Source of the DNA: a virus
Lineage: Duplodnaviria > Caudoviricetes
Length of the DNA: 64,000 bases
IMG/VR virus record: IMGVR_UViG_3300032236_000109
Coordinates: 1,016 to 65,015 of that record
Reading direction: 5' to 3' (one strand)
In this document: one piece after another, positions 41,028 to 53,248 of the stretch
How the letters are laid out: each line of letters starts with the position of its first letter
Numbering within the stretch: the first letter of the stretch is position 1
The notes under the pieces: generated by a model
The model's database searches: none
Told to the model about the DNA's origin: nothing
What the model saw: the letters and a program-made list of their open reading frames with translations, nothing else
Made by a program: the position numbers and the translations under genes

Positions 41028-41426
41028 GTGATTACCCTTAAACTACCTTATCCATGCAGCGTGAACTCTTACTGGCTGACGTCAGGTAAGCGCCGCTATA
41101 TATCGAAACGTGGAATGGCGTTTAAAGCTGCAGCAGCAGAGGCGTGTAATGGACTAACTGGATTTGGAAGTGATCCAGTAGAAGTGTCAATCGTGTTGTA
41201 TCCAAGAGACAAACGGCTGCTTGACATAGATAACATTTGTAAATGTATTCTAGATTCATTACAAGGGTATCTGTATGAGGACGATCAACAGGTCTGGAAG
41301 CTGACCGTTGAACGAGCCGAAAAGATTAAAGGCGGAGGATGTGACGTGACCGTCAAAGAATATAGTAAGCATGATCCTACTGTAACGGATCGCATGGCTG
41401 CGCTTATACAAGACTTAACTGATTAG
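41028..41426 (+). CDS. rusA: RusA-like Holliday junction resolvase
   Basis: LPYPCSVNSYW..DIDN..K..LDSL..EDDQQV. Confidence 0.88.
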   Translation: MITLKLPYPCSVNSYWLTSGKRRYISKRGMAFKAAAAEACNGLTGFGSDPVEVSIVLYPRDKRLLDIDNICKCILDSLQGYLYEDDQQVWKLTVERAEKIKGGGCDVTVKEYSKHDPTVTDRMAALIQDLTD

Positions 41427-41579
41427 GTGCGCTATGCACTTTCATGCGGCATGAATGCATGAATTTTCAATAAATGATGCATCTCATTCTTATTTATAGG
41501 TTCCCTTTTGGTACCTTTAGGTATTAATTTTCTATATACATTGATACCTATAGGTATAAAAAATGCTAATAAGTATGCA

Positions 41580-41629
41580 TATATAGGGTAAACCCTAATT
41601 GCTGTCAACGGCTGACAGCGTTGTATAAT
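41580..41629. promoter_or_regulatory. Divergent promoter hub with two palindromes
   Basis: Minus strand TTGACA(41608-41603)-17-TATATA; plus strand TATAAT at 41624; TAGGGTAAACCCTA 41584-41597; GCTGTCA-N5-TGACAGC 41601-41619. Confidence 0.6.
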
Positions 41630-41635
41630 AGCAAC

Positions 41636-41716
41636 AATGCCCTCCTCGGCATCCTTGGTGCAACTCCTCATTGCACCCCCCTTTGGGAGCGTGAGTATAC
41701 CGCTCCCATCTTTTTA
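41636..41716 (+). ncRNA. Candidate sRNA: two hairpins with CUCCUC loops plus intrinsic terminator
   Basis: ATGCC-CTCCTC-GGCAT; GGTGCAA-CTCCTCA-TTGCACC; TGGGAGCG..CGCTCCCA followed by TCTTTTT; TATAAT about 7 nt upstream. Confidence 0.65.
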
Positions 41717-41724
41717 TGCTACAA

Positions 41725-41740
41725 TTGCTGCATTGCAACA
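41725..41740. promoter_or_regulatory. PhaR-like operator
   Basis: TTGCTGCATTGCAACA matches the TGC-N3-GCA pattern of phasin promoters; lies just upstream of AAGGAG/ATG 41759. Confidence 0.45.
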
Positions 41741-41758
41741 TATCTTAAGGAGATAACC

Positions 41759-41899
41759 ATGTTTACATCTGAATTTGAAAAACAGTACAAAGATGCAGTA
41801 GCTAAGTTTGAAGTAGTAGCTGAGCATATTAAGCAAGCCAATGAGTTTTGGTTCAATGCTATACTCTCCAGCTTCAAGTCTTTCTCAAAGACTAAGTAA
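41759..41899 (+). CDS. 46-aa amphipathic-helix protein (mini-phasin candidate)
   Basis: Strong AAGGAG RBS; followed by its own terminator. Confidence 0.6.
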   Translation: MFTSEFEKQYKDAVAKFEVVAEHIKQANEFWFNAILSSFKSFSKTK

Positions 41900-41914
41900 T
41901 CGGTCTTAGACCGC

Positions 41915-41951
41915 AGGGGGTGAGCAGAAACTGCTTGCCCCTTTTCTTTTT
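41915..41951 (+). terminator. Intrinsic terminator
   Basis: GGGGTGAGCAG-AAA-CTGCTTGCCCC followed by T-run. Confidence 0.75.
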
Positions 41952-42006
41952 GTGTTACACTAATTGCGCAGATTGGAACTTTGGACGGTTCCTTGATGTT
42001 ATAATC

Positions 42007-42123
42007 AGCCACGAAACCCTATACACATGGGGTCTGTCATAGTTTTCTTATGCTTGGTTCGTGGCTTGACAAACATAAGCGAATGTCCAAAACAGACTCC
42101 AGTTGTATGGGGTTTTTTCTTTT
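42007..42123 (+). ncRNA. C4/CI-like antisense hairpin RNA candidate
   Basis: TGnTATAAT at 41997-42005; three nested stems; loop TTCGTGGCT (42058-42066) complementary to AGCCACGAA (42007-42015). Confidence 0.5.
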
Positions 42124-42126
42124 CTG

Positions 42127-42312
42127 CGGTCTATTCCGGACGCTTGAAACTTACACCAGCGGAATAGGTCTCAGCGCTACTGGGGGTTTAGTAGATGGAA
42201 CAGCGCAATATCGGTGGCGAAGCTAGAGCCGATACTACGAACGTCTGGCGGGTGCTGTGGCTCCGAACGGGTAACAGTTGAAGGCATCTAGGTAAGGCTA
42301 GGTGCGTTCACC
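42127..42312 (+). ncRNA. Multi-hairpin structured non-coding element upstream of replication genes
   Basis: CTATTCCG/CGGAATAG, GCGCT/AGCGC, TATCGG/CCGATA, GAACG/CGTTC and GCATCTAG/CTAGGTGC stems. Confidence 0.45.
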
Positions 42313-42371
42313 AAACGGGTAACATGCGGCATTATAGTATTACATGTTATATACGGGTATATGAGGATAGT

Positions 42372-42557
42372 ATGGACATAAGAGAAGAAATCAAAAAAGC
42401 AACTGGGGTAATCCCCGATTCAGTTAAATACGGATCAGTGCAACAATCAATCAGGTGGAAAGAGCGGGCGATGAGTGCTATACGTACTGCAGATAACCCA
42501 AAATCCACACAATATGAATTAAAAATGGCATTGGCATCACTAACGAGGAACGCATGA
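42372..42557 (+). CDS. Hypothetical protein (start MDIREE)
   Basis: GAGG RBS; ATGA overlap with the next gene. Confidence 0.55.
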   Translation: MDIREEIKKATGVIPDSVKYGSVQQSIRWKERAMSAIRTADNPKSTQYELKMALASLTRNA

Positions 42558-47320: not shown

Positions 47321-47538
47321 GCGTTGATCTCCCTTCCATAGTCTGCGGGATCCATGTCCCTGATTACCATCATGGCATCTGCGTATTGATAAGCTAGTTC
47401 AGCAGCTCCAATAGGGCTGGCACTTGTCCATTTGTCAATTACTTGCGTCAAAGCCTTGGCAGCAAAATAATCACGCAAATCCATTCCTTGCCATTTATCA
47501 ATGCTGGCTGTGTTTACATCTATTGGAAATGCTTTCAT
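47317..47538 (-). CDS. LRDYFAAK-family small phage protein
   Basis: KAFP..GMDLRDYFAAKAL..AYQYADAM. Confidence 0.7.
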   Translation of the reverse strand: MKAFPIDVNTASIDKWQGMDLRDYFAAKALTQVIDKWTSASPIGAAELAYQYADAMMVIRDMDPADYGREINA

Positions 47539-48269: not shown

Positions 48270-48438
48270 TTTCTGTCTCCTTTACTTCTTCAATATCGTA
48301 AATTTCCCAGTCAATATCTACTGGCTCGTCATCGAGATCAGCGTCCCATGCCTTTTCTCTTGCTTCTTCCCAGCTATTTGCTTCTACTTCTATCAAGAAG
48401 TATTCTTTTTTAATAACCCATCCTTTGTATATAGCCAT
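48262..48438 (-). CDS. Small acidic protein, DpnD/PcfM-like
   Basis: IEVEANSWEEAREKA; GAGGAG RBS. Confidence 0.6.
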   Translation of the reverse strand: MAIYKGWVIKKEYFLIEVEANSWEEAREKAWDADLDDEPVDIDWEIYDIEEVKETENA

Positions 48439-48439
48439 T

Positions 48440-48631
48440 TCAATTCTCCTCAAATCCAAGGTAATCAATAAGTTCTTGTTCAATAGCAAAATACAAAGCC
48501 TGACCTTTTTCTGTATTTCTAGTGCCGCCAATATTGTCTGGATCGGGTTCTATATATTCTCTATCCGTATCTAACGACACTTCTCTAACTACTGCCCAAT
48601 ATACTGCGTCTGCCATGTCATAAACATTCAT
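48440..48631 (-). CDS. Acidic hypothetical protein
   Basis: GAGGAG RBS. Confidence 0.55.
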   Translation of the reverse strand: MNVYDMADAVYWAVVREVSLDTDREYIEPDPDNIGGTRNTEKGQALYFAIEQELIDYLGFEEN

Positions 48632-48632
48632 T

Positions 48633-48839
48633 TCAATTCTCCTCAATTTCAGTAATTACAAAACTATCTGCAACAATTGCGCCGACCTTTAATGGCTCTC
48701 CGTCCATGTAAAAGAAAATCTTTTCGTCTGCGTAATCCTCTTTACCATCCCAATCACCTAATGCAATAGTGACTGGATAGATATTATCGGGTTCGTCCGT
48801 CCAATAGCCCTCGCAATACTTGGTCTGGTATTTAGACAT
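48633..48839 (-). CDS. Acidic hypothetical protein
   Basis: AAGGAG RBS before MSKYQ. Confidence 0.55.
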   Translation of the reverse strand: MSKYQTKYCEGYWTDEPDNIYPVTIALGDWDGKEDYADEKIFFYMDGEPLKVGAIVADSFVITEIEEN

Positions 48840-49413: not shown

Positions 49414-49597
49414 GGTAAATCTCCTATAAAAGCCTGACCCTCAATAGCAAAATGCTACCTTGCGTCTCAGCTAAAGTTAAAAAATAATTCTCAACACTTA
49501 AGTGATGAATTCATACCCCCGTTAATTCAACGGGTAAAACATAGGGTAAACCCTACTCCAAAATACCCCCTTTAAATGAGGTATTTCAGGGAAGTGT

Positions 49598-50983: not shown

Positions 50984-51292
50984 TTAAGCCGCCTTTCTGA
51001 TTTGTACGTCATTGAATCGGACTGCATCTAAACCTCTTATAAAAGCATGCATAGCGTTAAATAACTCCCGCTTTGTTGTGTGATAGCTTATAAGTGGAGT
51101 ATTTACCCCGCCACTTGTGTTGCTCATGCGATGCAAACAAACTCCCCCGTATGCGTGGCTTATATGATAGTTGCCAATATTGGCGCAAAATTTTCCGTTT
51201 TGATCCTTAGAATATGGCTCCAATGGGCTATTAGTTAGCTCGTTCAAGTATGTTGCTAGACTGTCCAGTTGTTTATCTGTGATTCTTTGCAA
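50984..51292 (-). CDS. Hypothetical early protein
   Basis: GAGGAG RBS; TTG start. Confidence 0.6.
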   Translation of the reverse strand: MQRITDKQLDSLATYLNELTNSPLEPYSKDQNGKFCANIGNYHISHAYGGVCLHRMSNTSGGVNTPLISYHTTKRELFNAMHAFIRGLDAVRFNDVQIRKAA

Positions 51293-51311
51293 GATAATTC
51301 TCCTCGGTTTA

Positions 51312-53146: not shown

Positions 53147-53248
53147 TTCCTGTTGCAAAAAAACAACGCTGTCAACGGTTGACACTTTTTATAGGGAAAG
53201 GCACCCCCTTGTGTTTCTAAACGCATAGGGTGGGGGGTATATTTTTTT

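What the first reader, a model, noticed from the sequence alone, without database searches (positions are those of the whole stretch)
41624..41716. Phage sRNA candidate with tandem anti-Shine-Dalgarno (CUCCUC) loops
Seen: a perfect TATAAT; about 7 nt later, two perfect hairpins with different stems but the same CUCCUC loop; then an 8-bp terminator with U-tract. Known: hairpin-displayed anti-SD loops define cuckoo/alpha-r14 and AbcR-type bacterial sRNAs. Inference: an ~80-nt trans-acting translational repressor of GAGGAG RBSs. Several phage genes have exactly GAGGAG (before 48438, 48631, 51292, 40941, 38787, 27300), whereas many structural genes use AGGAG/AAGGAG. This could act as an early-to-late switch or in host shut-off.
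Basis: partly seen in the sequence, partly recalled or inferred. Interest (0 to 1): 0.85.

Follow-up and report, generated by a model that had tools for sequence, protein, structure and literature searches.

The report
Phage small RNA with anti-Shine-Dalgarno loops
An uncultured freshwater phage carries a conserved gene for an ~80-base RNA whose two hairpin tips display the complement of ribosome-binding sites, so it probably damps translation of many messages, though no transcript or target has been shown.

Summary
A -10 TATAAT (41624-41629) is followed 7 nt later by hairpin 1 (41637-41652, loop CUCCUC), hairpin 2 (41657-41677, loop CUCCUCA) and a GC-rich terminator with a U-run (41685-41715). 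The fold scores z = -5.3, and both motifs are unpaired with P about 1.0.

It is a real, conserved, non-coding gene. Twelve distinct homologues from related uncultured phages each fold alone into the same three hairpins. On a model-fitted alignment, 95.9% of cells are paired and 11 of 19 pairs change on both sides. Stems vary, but UCCUC stays in the hairpin-2 loop in 12 of 12.

The same slot (RusA, then the RNA, then a small ORF, then ParB/helicase) holds other small terminated RNAs in relatives. These show UCCUC single-stranded, or on four hairpins (L007). Three of 22 lack it.

No Rfam family matches. No RNA-seq holder was listed. No specific target or private RBS tag emerged, and the host is unknown.

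Best reading (about 0.55): a trans-acting anti-SD sRNA, working like cuckoo/alpha-r14 sRNAs but not a member of that family. This scan has noted similar RNAs in other lake phages. The early-to-late switch idea remains untested.

The parts
41601..41619 (.). Palindrome GCTGTCAACGGCTGACAGC overlapping the -35 region, a probable operator for a phage regulator. A second copy lies at 53168-53186, after terS.
   Evidence: 0 and 2 mismatches. One search also found the second copy by similarity. Relatives carry variant palindromes in the same upstream region (TGTCAACGTTGACA, TGGTAACGTTACCA, TGGCAACGTTGCCA), read. Protein binding is inferred.
41602..41629 (+). Sigma-70-type promoter: -35-like CTGTCA, 16-nt spacer, -10 TATAAT (41624-41629).
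   Evidence: 10 of 12 matches. In 12 of 12 type-A homologues a -10 box (TATAAT, TATACT, TACAAT or TATATT) ends 6-8 nt before hairpin 1 (read). Promoter activity has not been shown.
41636..41715 (+). Predicted ~80-nt small RNA. The start is inferred from the -10 box and the end from the terminator U-run.
   Evidence: fold; covariance-model hits in relatives; covariation. The ends are inferred; no RNA data exist.
41637..41652 (+). Hairpin 1: AUGCC / loop CUCCUC / GGCAU.
   Evidence: The stem pair G-C changes to A-U in 10 of 12 homologues. The loop is YUCCUC in 11 of 12 type-A RNAs and UCAGCA in L005.
41657..41677 (+). Hairpin 2: GGUGCAA / loop CUCCUCA / UUGCACC.
   Evidence: Six of 7 pairs change on both sides across homologues. 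UCCUC is in the loop in 12 of 12.
41685..41715 (+). Intrinsic terminator: GGGAGCG / loop UGAGUAUAC / CGCUCCC, then UCUUUUU.
   Evidence: Four of 7 pairs change on both sides. The loop consensus GUGANNAYAC is unusually conserved across type-A RNAs, which is unexplained.

Best explanation
This is a phage gene for a free-standing ~80-nt small RNA. Host sigma-70 RNA polymerase starts about 7 nt after the TATAAT. This promoter is probably controlled by a regulator that binds the palindrome over the -35 region. The RNA folds at once into two short hairpins and ends at a strong intrinsic terminator.

Both hairpin tips hold the pyrimidine run (C/U)UCCUC permanently single-stranded. This run copies the core of the ribosome's anti-Shine-Dalgarno sequence. 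It can therefore pair with GAGGA(G)-type Shine-Dalgarno sites of messages, by loop-to-RBS pairing, and keep 30S subunits off them.

The conserved seed is only 5-7 nt and there are two redundant seeds. The RNA is thus expected to act broadly, on many messages, rather than on one target. The likeliest targets are the phage's own leftward blocks of small genes, where GAGGA(G) sites are concentrated, and possibly host messages.

Shown: sequence anatomy, fold, conservation, covariation, exposed motif, autonomy of the unit, and the skewed GAGGA distribution. Inferred: transcription, pairing with ribosome sites, repression, and the identity of targets.
For: 1. Fold and exposure. z = -5.31 with 0 of 200 shuffles as good. 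Both motifs are unpaired with P about 1.0.

2. Twelve distinct type-A homologues were found by anchors independent of the RNA: window, L003, L004, L005, L045, L048, L054, L057, L065, L068, L070 and L080. The anchors were ParB protein and a pattern in the downstream 'P3' RNA. Each folds alone into hairpin 1, hairpin 2 and terminator, with z from -2.6 to -5.2.

3. Covariation on alignment A9. 95.9% of 221 cells are paired, against 77.9 +/- 1.8 when shuffled (0 of 500 shuffles reach it). Eleven of 19 pairs change on both sides (1 of 500). The covariation score is 0.502 against 0.156 +/- 0.025 (0 of 500), and against 0.067-0.098 when partners are slid by 1-3 columns.

4. The loops are the conserved part. 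UCCUC is in the hairpin-2 loop in 12 of 12 and in the hairpin-1 loop in 11 of 12, over at least 8 different hairpin-2 stem sequences.

5. The same motif appears in other architectures in the same slot.
- Nineteen of 22 distinct P3-anchored loci have an unpaired UCCUC in the small terminated unit between RusA and P3: 11 type A, 2 type A', and 6 type B with single-stranded AUCCUCUUU.
- L011-13 have a 5' single-stranded UCUCCUCCC.
- L007/L008 and L142-144 have four hairpins with loops CCUCC, ACCUC or UCCUC, z = -5.06.

6. The unit is autonomous.
- A -10 box sits 6-8 nt from hairpin 1 in 12 of 12.
- A strong terminator follows in all.
- Next comes a separate conserved extended -10 promoter for the next gene.
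- The L004 group keeps the RNA but lacks the downstream ORF.
- In L070 that ORF is inverted and lies upstream.
- A metagenome contig replaces 41599-41711 with 113 other letters between conserved flanks.

7. Distribution of targets. GAGGA lies within 20 nt upstream of called starts as follows (crude own gene caller):
- Window: 15 of 64 genes on the opposite strand against 4 of 62 on the RNA's strand.
- G003: 12 of 63 against 4 of 65.
- G002: 12 of 55 against 5 of 70.
Initiation regions with at least 8 contiguous complementary bases number 7 of 126, against 1 of 258 intragenic controls.

8. Precedent. The loop aSD motifs of NfeR1 (alpha-r14) block the ntrB ribosome site and act redundantly (PMC10746234, passages read). 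The SL2 loop of the Neisseria sibling sRNAs obstructs ribosome sites (PMC9973317, passages read).
Against: - No expression evidence of any kind.
- The invariant core is 5 nt, too short to name a target.
- No own-genome specificity in the sRNA-by-genome matrix of complementary initiation regions. The window sRNA scores 14/7, 7/4 and 3/1. The G003 sRNA scores 11/3, 10/4 and 9/2. The G002 sRNA scores 10/6, 20/9 and 17/9 (counts at >=7 / >=8 nt). There is thus no private RBS tag and no loop/RBS co-evolution.
- G003 has UUCCUC loops, yet GAGGAG (7) is not replaced by GAGGAA (6) in its ribosome sites.
- The GAGGA share of ribosome sites does not track RNA type: type A 33 of 167, B 15 of 175, C (no motif) 9 of 66, D 11 of 33, E 1 of 22.
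- Three of 22 slot variants (L066, L072, L078) carry a small RNA without UCCUC.
- Hairpin-1 loops are UCAGCA in L005 and UGGAUG in L050 and L064.
- Most of the 80 sampled ParB-family loci show no multi-hairpin cluster. On the plus strand there are 4 real clusters (L007, L142-144) and one doubtful (L200), against 5 two-hairpin clusters on the control strand.
- The conserved terminator loop GUGANNAYAC is not explained by this model.
- The covariation alignment was fitted to the structure by the model, and four of its rows (the L004 group) are near-identical, so cell counts are inflated.
- Complementarity to ribosome sites is automatic for any RNA that carries this motif.
Confidence: 0.55

Rival explanations
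1. Decoy or sponge RNA. The exposed CU-rich loops, and the conserved terminator loop, bind and titrate something other than messenger ribosome sites. Candidates are a protein (for example ribosomal protein S1, an RNA chaperone or a nuclease) or a purine-rich host sRNA.
For: - The conserved core is very short, and no specific mRNA partner or co-varying tag emerged.
- The motif is multiplied from 1 to 4 copies per RNA across relatives, as expected for a titrating RNA.
- The terminator loop GUGANNAYAC is conserved for no reason that base-pairing explains. Its complement is not enriched in the window: 11 matches against 12.4 expected.
- That S1 binds pyrimidine-rich single strands is recalled textbook knowledge, not tested here.
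Against: No candidate partner was identified. The motif is exactly the complement of the commonest strong ribosome-site core of the phage's own small genes. Characterised RNAs with this design act on ribosome sites.
Confidence: 0.15
2. Cis-acting leader of the rightward replication operon. The two hairpins and the terminator form an attenuator, or a put-like element that modifies RNA polymerase. On this reading the element controls read-through into ORF46, ParB, helicase and primase rather than acting as a free RNA.
For: - The unit heads a series of three promoter-terminator units (41624-41715, 41717-41943, about 41995-42115) upstream of the replication genes.
- Two hairpins directly after a promoter resemble HK022 put sites (recalled, not tested).
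Against: - A strong terminator (7-10 GC-rich pairs and a U-run) follows directly in all 12, and a separate conserved extended -10 promoter follows it.
- The loops are conserved, not the stems.
- Type B and type E relatives keep the motif without the two-hairpin design.
- The unit keeps its form while its downstream neighbour is absent (L004 group) or inverted (L070).
- The unit is swapped as a cassette.
Confidence: 0.1
3. Replication-linked RNA: a primer or regulator at the phage origin. The RNA sits beside iteron-like repeats and palindromes, just upstream of the replication module.
For: - The AT-rich region 41480-41600 carries repeated TACCTATAGGTA-like and GGTTCC...GGTACC motifs.
- The palindrome TAGGGTAAACCCTA occurs at 41584 and again at 49542.
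- Neighbouring genes encode ParB-like protein, helicase and primase.
Against: Nothing links the UCCUC loops to DNA replication. The motif is kept in relatives where the spacing to the palindromes varies from 23 to 62 nt. The RNA ends at a terminator instead of running into an origin.
Confidence: 0.07
4. No function of its own: chance hairpins, or a plain terminator region after RusA.
For: Short hairpins with UCCUC or CCUCC in the loop are common by chance: 18 on the plus strand and 8 on the minus strand of the window with stems of at least 4 pairs.
Against: Conservation with compensatory changes in 12 distinct homologues, a fixed promoter distance, and recurrence of the motif in unrelated architectures in the same slot.
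Confidence: 0.03

Closest known systems
Cuckoo / alpha-r14 sRNAs of Alphaproteobacteria (NfeR1, CcsR), with the related AbcR1/2
   Same: Two to four adjacent hairpins with variable stems, each showing the same pyrimidine anti-SD motif in its loop. The motifs are redundant and block ribosome sites of many mRNAs (PMC4615179 abstract; PMC10746234 passages). The L007-type relative, with four such hairpins, looks most alike.
   Different: - The defining 9-nt motif CCUCCUCCC is absent. Here the loops are CUCCUC(A) or UUCCUC, with a conserved core of only UCCUC.
- There is no Rfam match even at E <= 10.
- It is encoded by a phage, not a bacterial chromosome.
- The last hairpin is a terminator, with its own conserved non-aSD loop.
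- It is an analogue, not a member.
Neisseria sibling sRNAs NgncR_162/163 (RcoF/NmsR)
   Same: An RNA of roughly 80-90 nt with three stem-loops, SL3 being the terminator. The SL2 loop and the adjoining single strand obstruct ribosome sites of many targets (PMC9973317 passages). The host class is possibly related, since a Betaproteobacteria-1 RNA lies 400 nt downstream.
   Different: Rfam gave no hit. Those sRNAs are chromosomal and metabolic. Their length is recalled, not taken from a call.
c4 antisense RNA of phages P1 and P7
   Same: A small phage-encoded RNA whose loop sequences pair around a ribosome-binding site to block translation (review PMC12197685, passages).
   Different: c4 has extended, specific complementarity to one target (ant/icd) in its own operon and serves immunity. 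Here the seed is generic and no single target exists. That c4 is processed from a longer transcript is recalled.
T4 RegB endoribonuclease
   Same: A phage device that inactivates GGAG Shine-Dalgarno sites of early phage messages to end early protein synthesis (PMC1702504, abstract start in the search listing). It is the functional analogue of the proposed switch.
   Different: RegB is a protein nuclease that cuts the site. Here an RNA would mask it. No timing data exist for this phage.

Membership tests
Cuckoo / alpha-r14 (Rfam ar14) | 2 to 4 adjacent hairpins with variable stems | tested here: met
   Two hairpins plus a terminator hairpin. The stems vary across 12 homologues. The definition comes from the PMC4615179 abstract.
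Cuckoo / alpha-r14 (Rfam ar14) | Each hairpin loop carries CCUCCUCCC | tested here: not met
   The loops are CUCCUC and CUCCUCA. The homologues have YUCCUC(N). None of the 12 has the 9-nt motif.
Cuckoo / alpha-r14 and AbcR (Rfam models) | Match to the family covariance model | tested here: not met
Nothing reaches the gathering threshold in the candidate. At E <= 10 over 41400-42400, nothing overlaps the three hairpins 41637-41715.
Trans-acting base-pairing sRNA (general kind) | Own promoter and Rho-independent terminator giving a discrete short transcript | tested here: inconclusive
   Sequence signals are present and conserved: a -10 box 6-8 nt from hairpin 1 in 12 of 12, and a terminator in 12 of 12. 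No transcript data could be obtained.
Trans-acting base-pairing sRNA (general kind) | Conserved, accessible seed complementary to targets encoded elsewhere | tested here: inconclusive
   The seed is conserved and unpaired. It is complementary to many GAGGA(G) ribosome sites, but with no specificity beyond the SD core.
Intrinsic terminator | GC-rich stem-loop followed directly by a U-run | tested here: met
   Seven to eight pairs, five of them G-C, then UCUUUUU. It is kept with compensatory changes in the homologues.
HK022 put-type antiterminator RNA | Two stem-loops after a promoter that act in cis to make RNA polymerase read through terminators | not testable with these tools
   The position after a promoter fits. 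The conserved loops with variable stems, the single-motif variants and the strong terminator directly behind all argue against it. The features of put RNA are recalled, not taken from a call.
Neisseria sibling sRNAs (NgncR_162/163) | Sequence or structure homology to the sibling sRNAs | not tested
Only the architecture was compared, from passages of PMC9973317.

The most novel reading that the evidence does not exclude
A large group of uncultured freshwater phages keeps, at the head of its replication module, a swappable 'small-RNA cassette' slot. Unrelated RNA scaffolds in this slot carry one single-stranded run, two hairpins or four hairpins. They have repeatedly been selected to display the ribosome's anti-Shine-Dalgarno pentamer. 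This would be an RNA counterpart of T4 RegB: a general, RNA-based way for phages to mask GAGGA-type ribosome sites and reprogramme translation, whether of their own early genes or of host messages. Together with the similar RNAs this scan noted in other lake phages, it would point to a widespread and so far undescribed phage strategy.
Probability: 0.3. Interest if true: 0.8.

Novelty: new variant of a known kind. Interest (0 to 1): 0.6.

Why it matters
Phage-encoded small RNAs are known mainly from a few prophages and model phages. Almost nothing is known for the uncultured phages that dominate lakes.

Here a conserved, structurally supported RNA family shows the anti-Shine-Dalgarno core in hairpin loops. 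It sits in a polymorphic slot where quite different RNAs keep the same motif. If it masks ribosome sites, it is a simple global translational control device carried by a virus, and an RNA analogue of RegB.

The family gives concrete and cheap experiments: reporters with loop mutants, and expression of the RNA in a surrogate host. It also provides a covariance model for finding more members. Even if the target is a protein or a host RNA, the family is new to Rfam.

Tried and rejected
**Searches that found nothing**
- Rfam has no family for the candidate at gathering or at E <= 10.
- GenBank phages gave no DNA match by megablast or blastn.
- ParB has only three weak partial protein hits, in unnamed phages. 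The helicase has no close named relative. The host is therefore not identified.
- Expression: no RNA holder listed. Reads could be laid only as DNA contigs.

**Host genomes**
- The genome-contig scan with the ParB alignment gave one MAG contig, L058.
- Model R1 found nothing in that MAG.
- Among 151 genomes of its order it gave 2 hits at E about 0.005. That is the level expected by chance, and I did not inspect them.
- No taxonomy was returned, so 'host sRNA mimic' could not be tested.

**Target searches**
- Private RBS tag and loop/RBS co-variation: rejected. This idea was taken from earlier scan notes.
- RNAduplex ranking of initiation regions ignores accessibility and was uninformative. Its top hit is only the antisense ORF that overlaps the RNA.
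- GAGGA share against RNA type: no clean trend.
- The base before GAGGAG is U or C in some genes and A in six, so it gives no signal beyond chance.
- Complement of the terminator loop in the window: 11 matches against 12.4 expected.

**Other tests**
- Pentamer test upstream of 116 plus-strand terminators in ParB-family loci: TCCTC 17, CTCCT 17 and TCTCC 16, against 4-11 for the other C3T2 permutations. The control strand was flat. The effect is suggestive but weak.
- A coding reading is rejected. The window and L003 differ by non-triplet indels in hairpin 2. The minus-strand ORF 41432-41671 and the plus-strand ORF 41621-41899 are not conserved.

**Technical dead ends**
- The 16-mer of hairpin 1 gave 29 viral hits. 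In the blastn none of them matched the wider region beyond about 23 nt (L025, L037), so they are taken as chance.
- The hairpin-1 plus terminator-loop pattern gave 57 loci. Fifty-one were new, and only 3 of those (L090, L112, L121, all of the L004 group) are real by model R2.
- MAFFT alignments A2 and A6 put hairpin 2 out of register. Model R1 was therefore weak there and was replaced by R2, built from A7.
- The script had an indexing bug that printed long sequence. It was repeated correctly.
- The strict terminator finder missed known terminators. Its zero counts for L006, L009, L010 and L014 are weak evidence.
- The pattern had the wrong spacing for the window's palindrome and found nothing.
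- The small proteins were never aligned after the coordinate error.
- Supplements of papers were not opened.
Full report
**Setting.** The window is nearly all of a complete 65,015-bp virus record with direct terminal repeats. It has no close relative among GenBank phages. DNA runs that hold it are freshwater metagenomes. The candidate lies at the head of a rightward replication module:
- RusA-like resolvase, 41028-41426
- the candidate RNA
- a 46-aa ORF with its own promoter and terminator, 41759-41899
- a further promoter-hairpin-terminator unit ('P3 RNA', about 41995-42115)
- an Rfam Betaproteobacteria-1 RNA, 42129-42253 (93 bits)
- a 77-aa ORF, a ParB-like protein, a helicase and a primase

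Two blocks of mostly small genes run leftward, at 28.6-41.0 kb and 46.5-51.8 kb. Structural genes run rightward.

**Observation.**
- TATAAT lies at 41624-41629.
- Hairpin 1 (AUGCC/CUCCUC/GGCAU) starts 7 nt later, at 41637-41652.
- Hairpin 2 (GGUGCAA/CUCCUCA/UUGCACC) lies at 41657-41677.
- The terminator (GGGAGCG/UGAGUAUAC/CGCUCCC) lies at 41685-41707, followed by UCUUUUU.

RNAfold returns exactly this structure at -29.2 kcal/mol, with z = -5.31 and 0 of 200 shuffles as stable. Both CUCCUC runs are unpaired with probability about 1.0. The strand is fixed by the -10 box upstream and the U-run downstream. The opposite strand has neither.

**Relatives.** I collected relatives by anchors that do not include the RNA itself.
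- The ParB protein gave 13 viral loci.
- A pattern in the downstream P3 RNA gave 13 viral and 18 metagenome loci.
- Of the 34 sources with the P3 pattern (the window, L004 and L005 included), 4 had under 300 nt upstream and 8 were identical to others. This left 22 distinct upstream regions.
- Two covariance models were built: R1 from A2 and R2 from A7.
- They found 12 distinct 'type A' RNAs: window, L003, L004, L005, L045, L048, L054, L057, L065, L068, L070 and L080.
- Three more of the L004 group came from a motif scan: 3 of 51 new loci proved real.
- There is one copy per complete genome in G000, G002 and G003.

**Structure is under selection.**
- Each of the 12 folds on its own into hairpin 1, hairpin 2 and terminator. 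In L005 an extra outer helix encloses the first two. z ranges from -2.6 to -5.2.
- On the model-fitted alignment A9, 95.9% of 221 cells pair, against 77.9 +/- 1.8 in shuffles.
- Eleven of 19 pairs change on both sides: 1 of 5 in hairpin 1, 6 of 7 in hairpin 2 and 4 of 7 in the terminator.
- The covariation score is 0.502 against 0.156 +/- 0.025 in shuffles and 0.067-0.098 when partners are slid.
- Two caveats apply. The alignment was fitted to this structure, and four rows (the L004 group) are near-identical.
- Non-triplet indels between close relatives exclude a coding reading.
- Close population variants agree. A contig variant 41690 C>T turns a C-G pair into U-G. Other changes fall in the terminator loop. 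None was listed in the two CUCCUC loops for the contigs that cover them.

**The loops are what is kept.**
- Hairpin-2 stems come in at least eight sequences, but the loop always contains UCCUC. The forms are CUCCUCA, AUCCUCA, UUCCUC(U), CUCCUC, UAAUCCUCU, UCCUCCUCU and CUCCUCU.
- Hairpin-1 loops are CUCCUC(N) or UUCCUC in 11 of 12, and UCAGCA in L005.
- The -10 box (TATAAT, TATACT, TACAAT or TATATT) ends 6-8 nt before hairpin 1 in 12 of 12. The RNA therefore begins at the foot of hairpin 1.

**The slot is polymorphic, yet the motif recurs.** In the 22 P3-anchored regions, the small terminated unit between RusA and the next gene falls into four types:
- Type A: 11 regions.
- Type A': 2 regions (L050, L064), with hairpin-1 loop UGGAUG and a weak second hairpin with loop UUUUCCUCG.
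- Type B: 6 regions (L049, L051, L053, L055, L056, L071), with a different first hairpin, then single-stranded GAUUAUCCUCUUU directly before the terminator.
- Type C: 3 regions (L066, L072, L078), with a GUAUC/UCGUGAG/GAUAC hairpin and no UCCUC.

So 19 of 22 show an unpaired UCCUC.

Among more distant ParB-anchored phages:
- L011-13 have a 5' single-stranded UCUCCUCCC, one hairpin and a terminator.
- L007/L008 have, behind an extended -10 box, an RNA of four hairpins whose 5-nt loops are CCUCC, ACCUC, UCCUC and UCCUC. The last of these is the terminator loop. z = -5.06.
- L142-144 (ParB 87% identical to L007) keep these loops with changed stems.
- L006, L009, L010, L014 and L058 showed nothing comparable.
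- In a sample of 80 loci of the wider ParB family, multi-hairpin clusters on the ParB strand were limited to L007 and L142-144, plus one doubtful case (L200). The opposite strand had five loose two-hairpin pairs.
- Several further single-motif units were seen by eye (L146, L169, L184, L195/L201, L196). UCUCCUC-derived pentamers are 2-4 times commoner than other C3U2 permutations in the 70 nt before plus-strand terminators. This is suggestive only.

**The unit is autonomous.**
- A separate, highly conserved extended -10 promoter for the 46-aa ORF follows the terminator.
- The L004 group has the RNA but no such ORF.
- In L070 the ORF is inverted and upstream.
- One metagenome contig replaces 41599-41711 with 113 other letters between conserved flanks. 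Loose ends of other contigs show type-C-like and L057-like cassettes at the same place.

All this fits a free-standing gene better than a leader.

**What could it pair with?** I used a crude gene caller of my own: longest non-overlapping ORFs, with the start chosen by SD strength. GAGGA within 20 nt upstream of the start is found as follows.

| Genome | Opposite strand | RNA's strand |
|---|---|---|
| Window | 15 of 64 | 4 of 62 |
| G003 | 12 of 63 | 4 of 65 |
| G002 | 12 of 55 | 5 of 70 |

Five more GAGGAG sites exist, before 30595, 32176, 36914, 47538 and 50631.
- Hairpin 1 with its flanks matches 8 contiguous bases in the initiation regions of the genes starting at 47538, 50631, 51292 and 33365. 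The whole hairpin-2 loop matches UGAGGAG before 48631.
- Initiation regions are enriched over intragenic controls: 7 of 126 against 1 of 258 at 8 nt or more. Any anti-SD sequence would show this.

The sharper tests failed:
- The sRNA-by-genome matrix shows no own-genome preference.
- UUCCUC loops in G003 are not matched by a shift from GAGGAG to GAGGAA.
- The GAGGA share does not follow RNA type.

There is therefore no private tag. The seed is the generic SD core.

**Interpretation.** The best-supported reading is a trans-acting sRNA that masks GAGGA(G)-type ribosome sites through two redundant loop seeds. Experimentally characterised RNAs of the same design work this way: NfeR1 of the alpha-r14/cuckoo family (PMC10746234, passages; family definition in the PMC4615179 abstract) and the Neisseria sibling sRNAs (PMC9973317, passages).

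It is not a member of those families. The 9-nt cuckoo motif is absent and no Rfam model matches. Among phage systems, c4 of P1/P7 is the nearest RNA precedent (PMC12197685, passages). T4 RegB is the nearest functional precedent for silencing early GGAG sites (PMC1702504, listing).

A palindrome over the -35 region recurs after terS and appears in variant forms in relatives. It suggests regulated transcription, but the timing is unknown.

Rivals that remain are a protein or sRNA decoy, a cis leader, and an origin-linked RNA. The decoy reading would also account for the unexplained conservation of the terminator loop GUGANNAYAC.

**Novelty.** Searches of the paper library turned up reviews and single cases, but no description of a phage RNA with generic anti-SD loops. 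The searches were 'phage-encoded' + sRNA + anti-Shine-Dalgarno (1 paper, unrelated) and 'phage-encoded small RNA' + 'ribosome binding site' (4 papers). Supplements were not available.

This scan has itself noted comparable RNAs in other lake phages. I used those notes only as leads. Their 'private tag' idea was tested here and not found.

I rate this a new variant of a known kind. It is a new RNA family, phage-borne, in a swappable slot, that very probably works like known anti-SD sRNAs.

Noticed in passing
window 42129-42253 (+): A full-length match to Rfam RF02932, Betaproteobacteria-1 RNA (93.2 bits, gathering 49.4), inside the phage between the P3 unit and the 77-aa ORF/ParB. It is also conserved in L003, L004, L005 and L045.
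   Followed up: partly
window ~41995-42123 (+): 'P3 RNA': an extended -10 box TGTTATAAT, a long hairpin RNA (CAUGGGGUCU...AUAGUUUUCUUAUG...AACAUAAGCGAAUG) and a weak terminator. Its core is identical in 13 viral and 18 metagenome loci. No Rfam family matches. It is probably a leader or attenuator of the replication genes.
   Followed up: partly
window 41717-41943 (+): A self-contained unit: extended -10 box TGCTACAAT, conserved TGCATTGCAACA, strong RBS, a 46-aa ORF (41759-41899) and a 13-pair terminator. The ORF has no PHROG hit. It is conserved in most type A and B loci, absent from the L004 group and inverted in L070.
   Followed up: partly
window 41584-41597 and 49542-49555: The perfect palindrome TAGGGTAAACCCTA occurs twice (7 matches at up to 2 mismatches against 0.6 expected). 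It is conserved upstream of the sRNA promoter in all relatives, at spacings of 23-62 nt. It is probably a regulator-binding or origin-linked site.
   Followed up: partly
window 41601-41619 and 53168-53186: An operator-like palindrome (TGTCAAC-N-GTTGACA type) lies over the sRNA -35 region and again just after the small terminase gene. Relatives carry co-varying versions (TGGTAACGTTACCA, TGGCAACGTTGCCA, TGGAAACGTTACCA).
   Followed up: partly
L007:981-1078 (+), also L008 and L142-L144: A four-hairpin RNA in which every 5-nt loop is CCUCC, ACCUC or UCCUC, including the terminator loop (z = -5.06). It sits in the RusA-to-ParB interval of a related phage clade and is the most cuckoo-like form seen.
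   Followed up: partly
L066, L072 (=L074, L075), L078, upstream of P3: Type C cassette in the same slot: hairpin GUAUC/UCGUGAG/GAUAC, then UUCCC and a terminator, without UCCUC. Its CGUGAG..AUAC echoes the conserved terminator loop GUGAGUAUAC of type A, which is unexplained.
   Followed up: no
window 48436-48451, 48629-48644, 51290-51305 (-): Three small leftward genes share nearly the same initiation module, (U/C)GAGGAGAAUU followed by the start codon. This suggests duplicated or shuffled 5' modules among the small genes.
   Followed up: no
window 41599-41711, contigs of run X4: A related phage population has the whole sRNA gene replaced by 113 unrelated letters between conserved flanks. This is cassette-like exchange at this slot.
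   Followed up: partly
The Rfam scan of the whole window at gathering thresholds listed only RF02932. I did not examine the site further.
   Followed up: no
L007:846-934 (+): Directly after RusA in L007/L008 lies a further small terminated element with CU-rich runs (UUCCCUUUCAUUUCCC) and a CGUGAG motif. Model R2 hit it weakly (18 bits).
   Followed up: no
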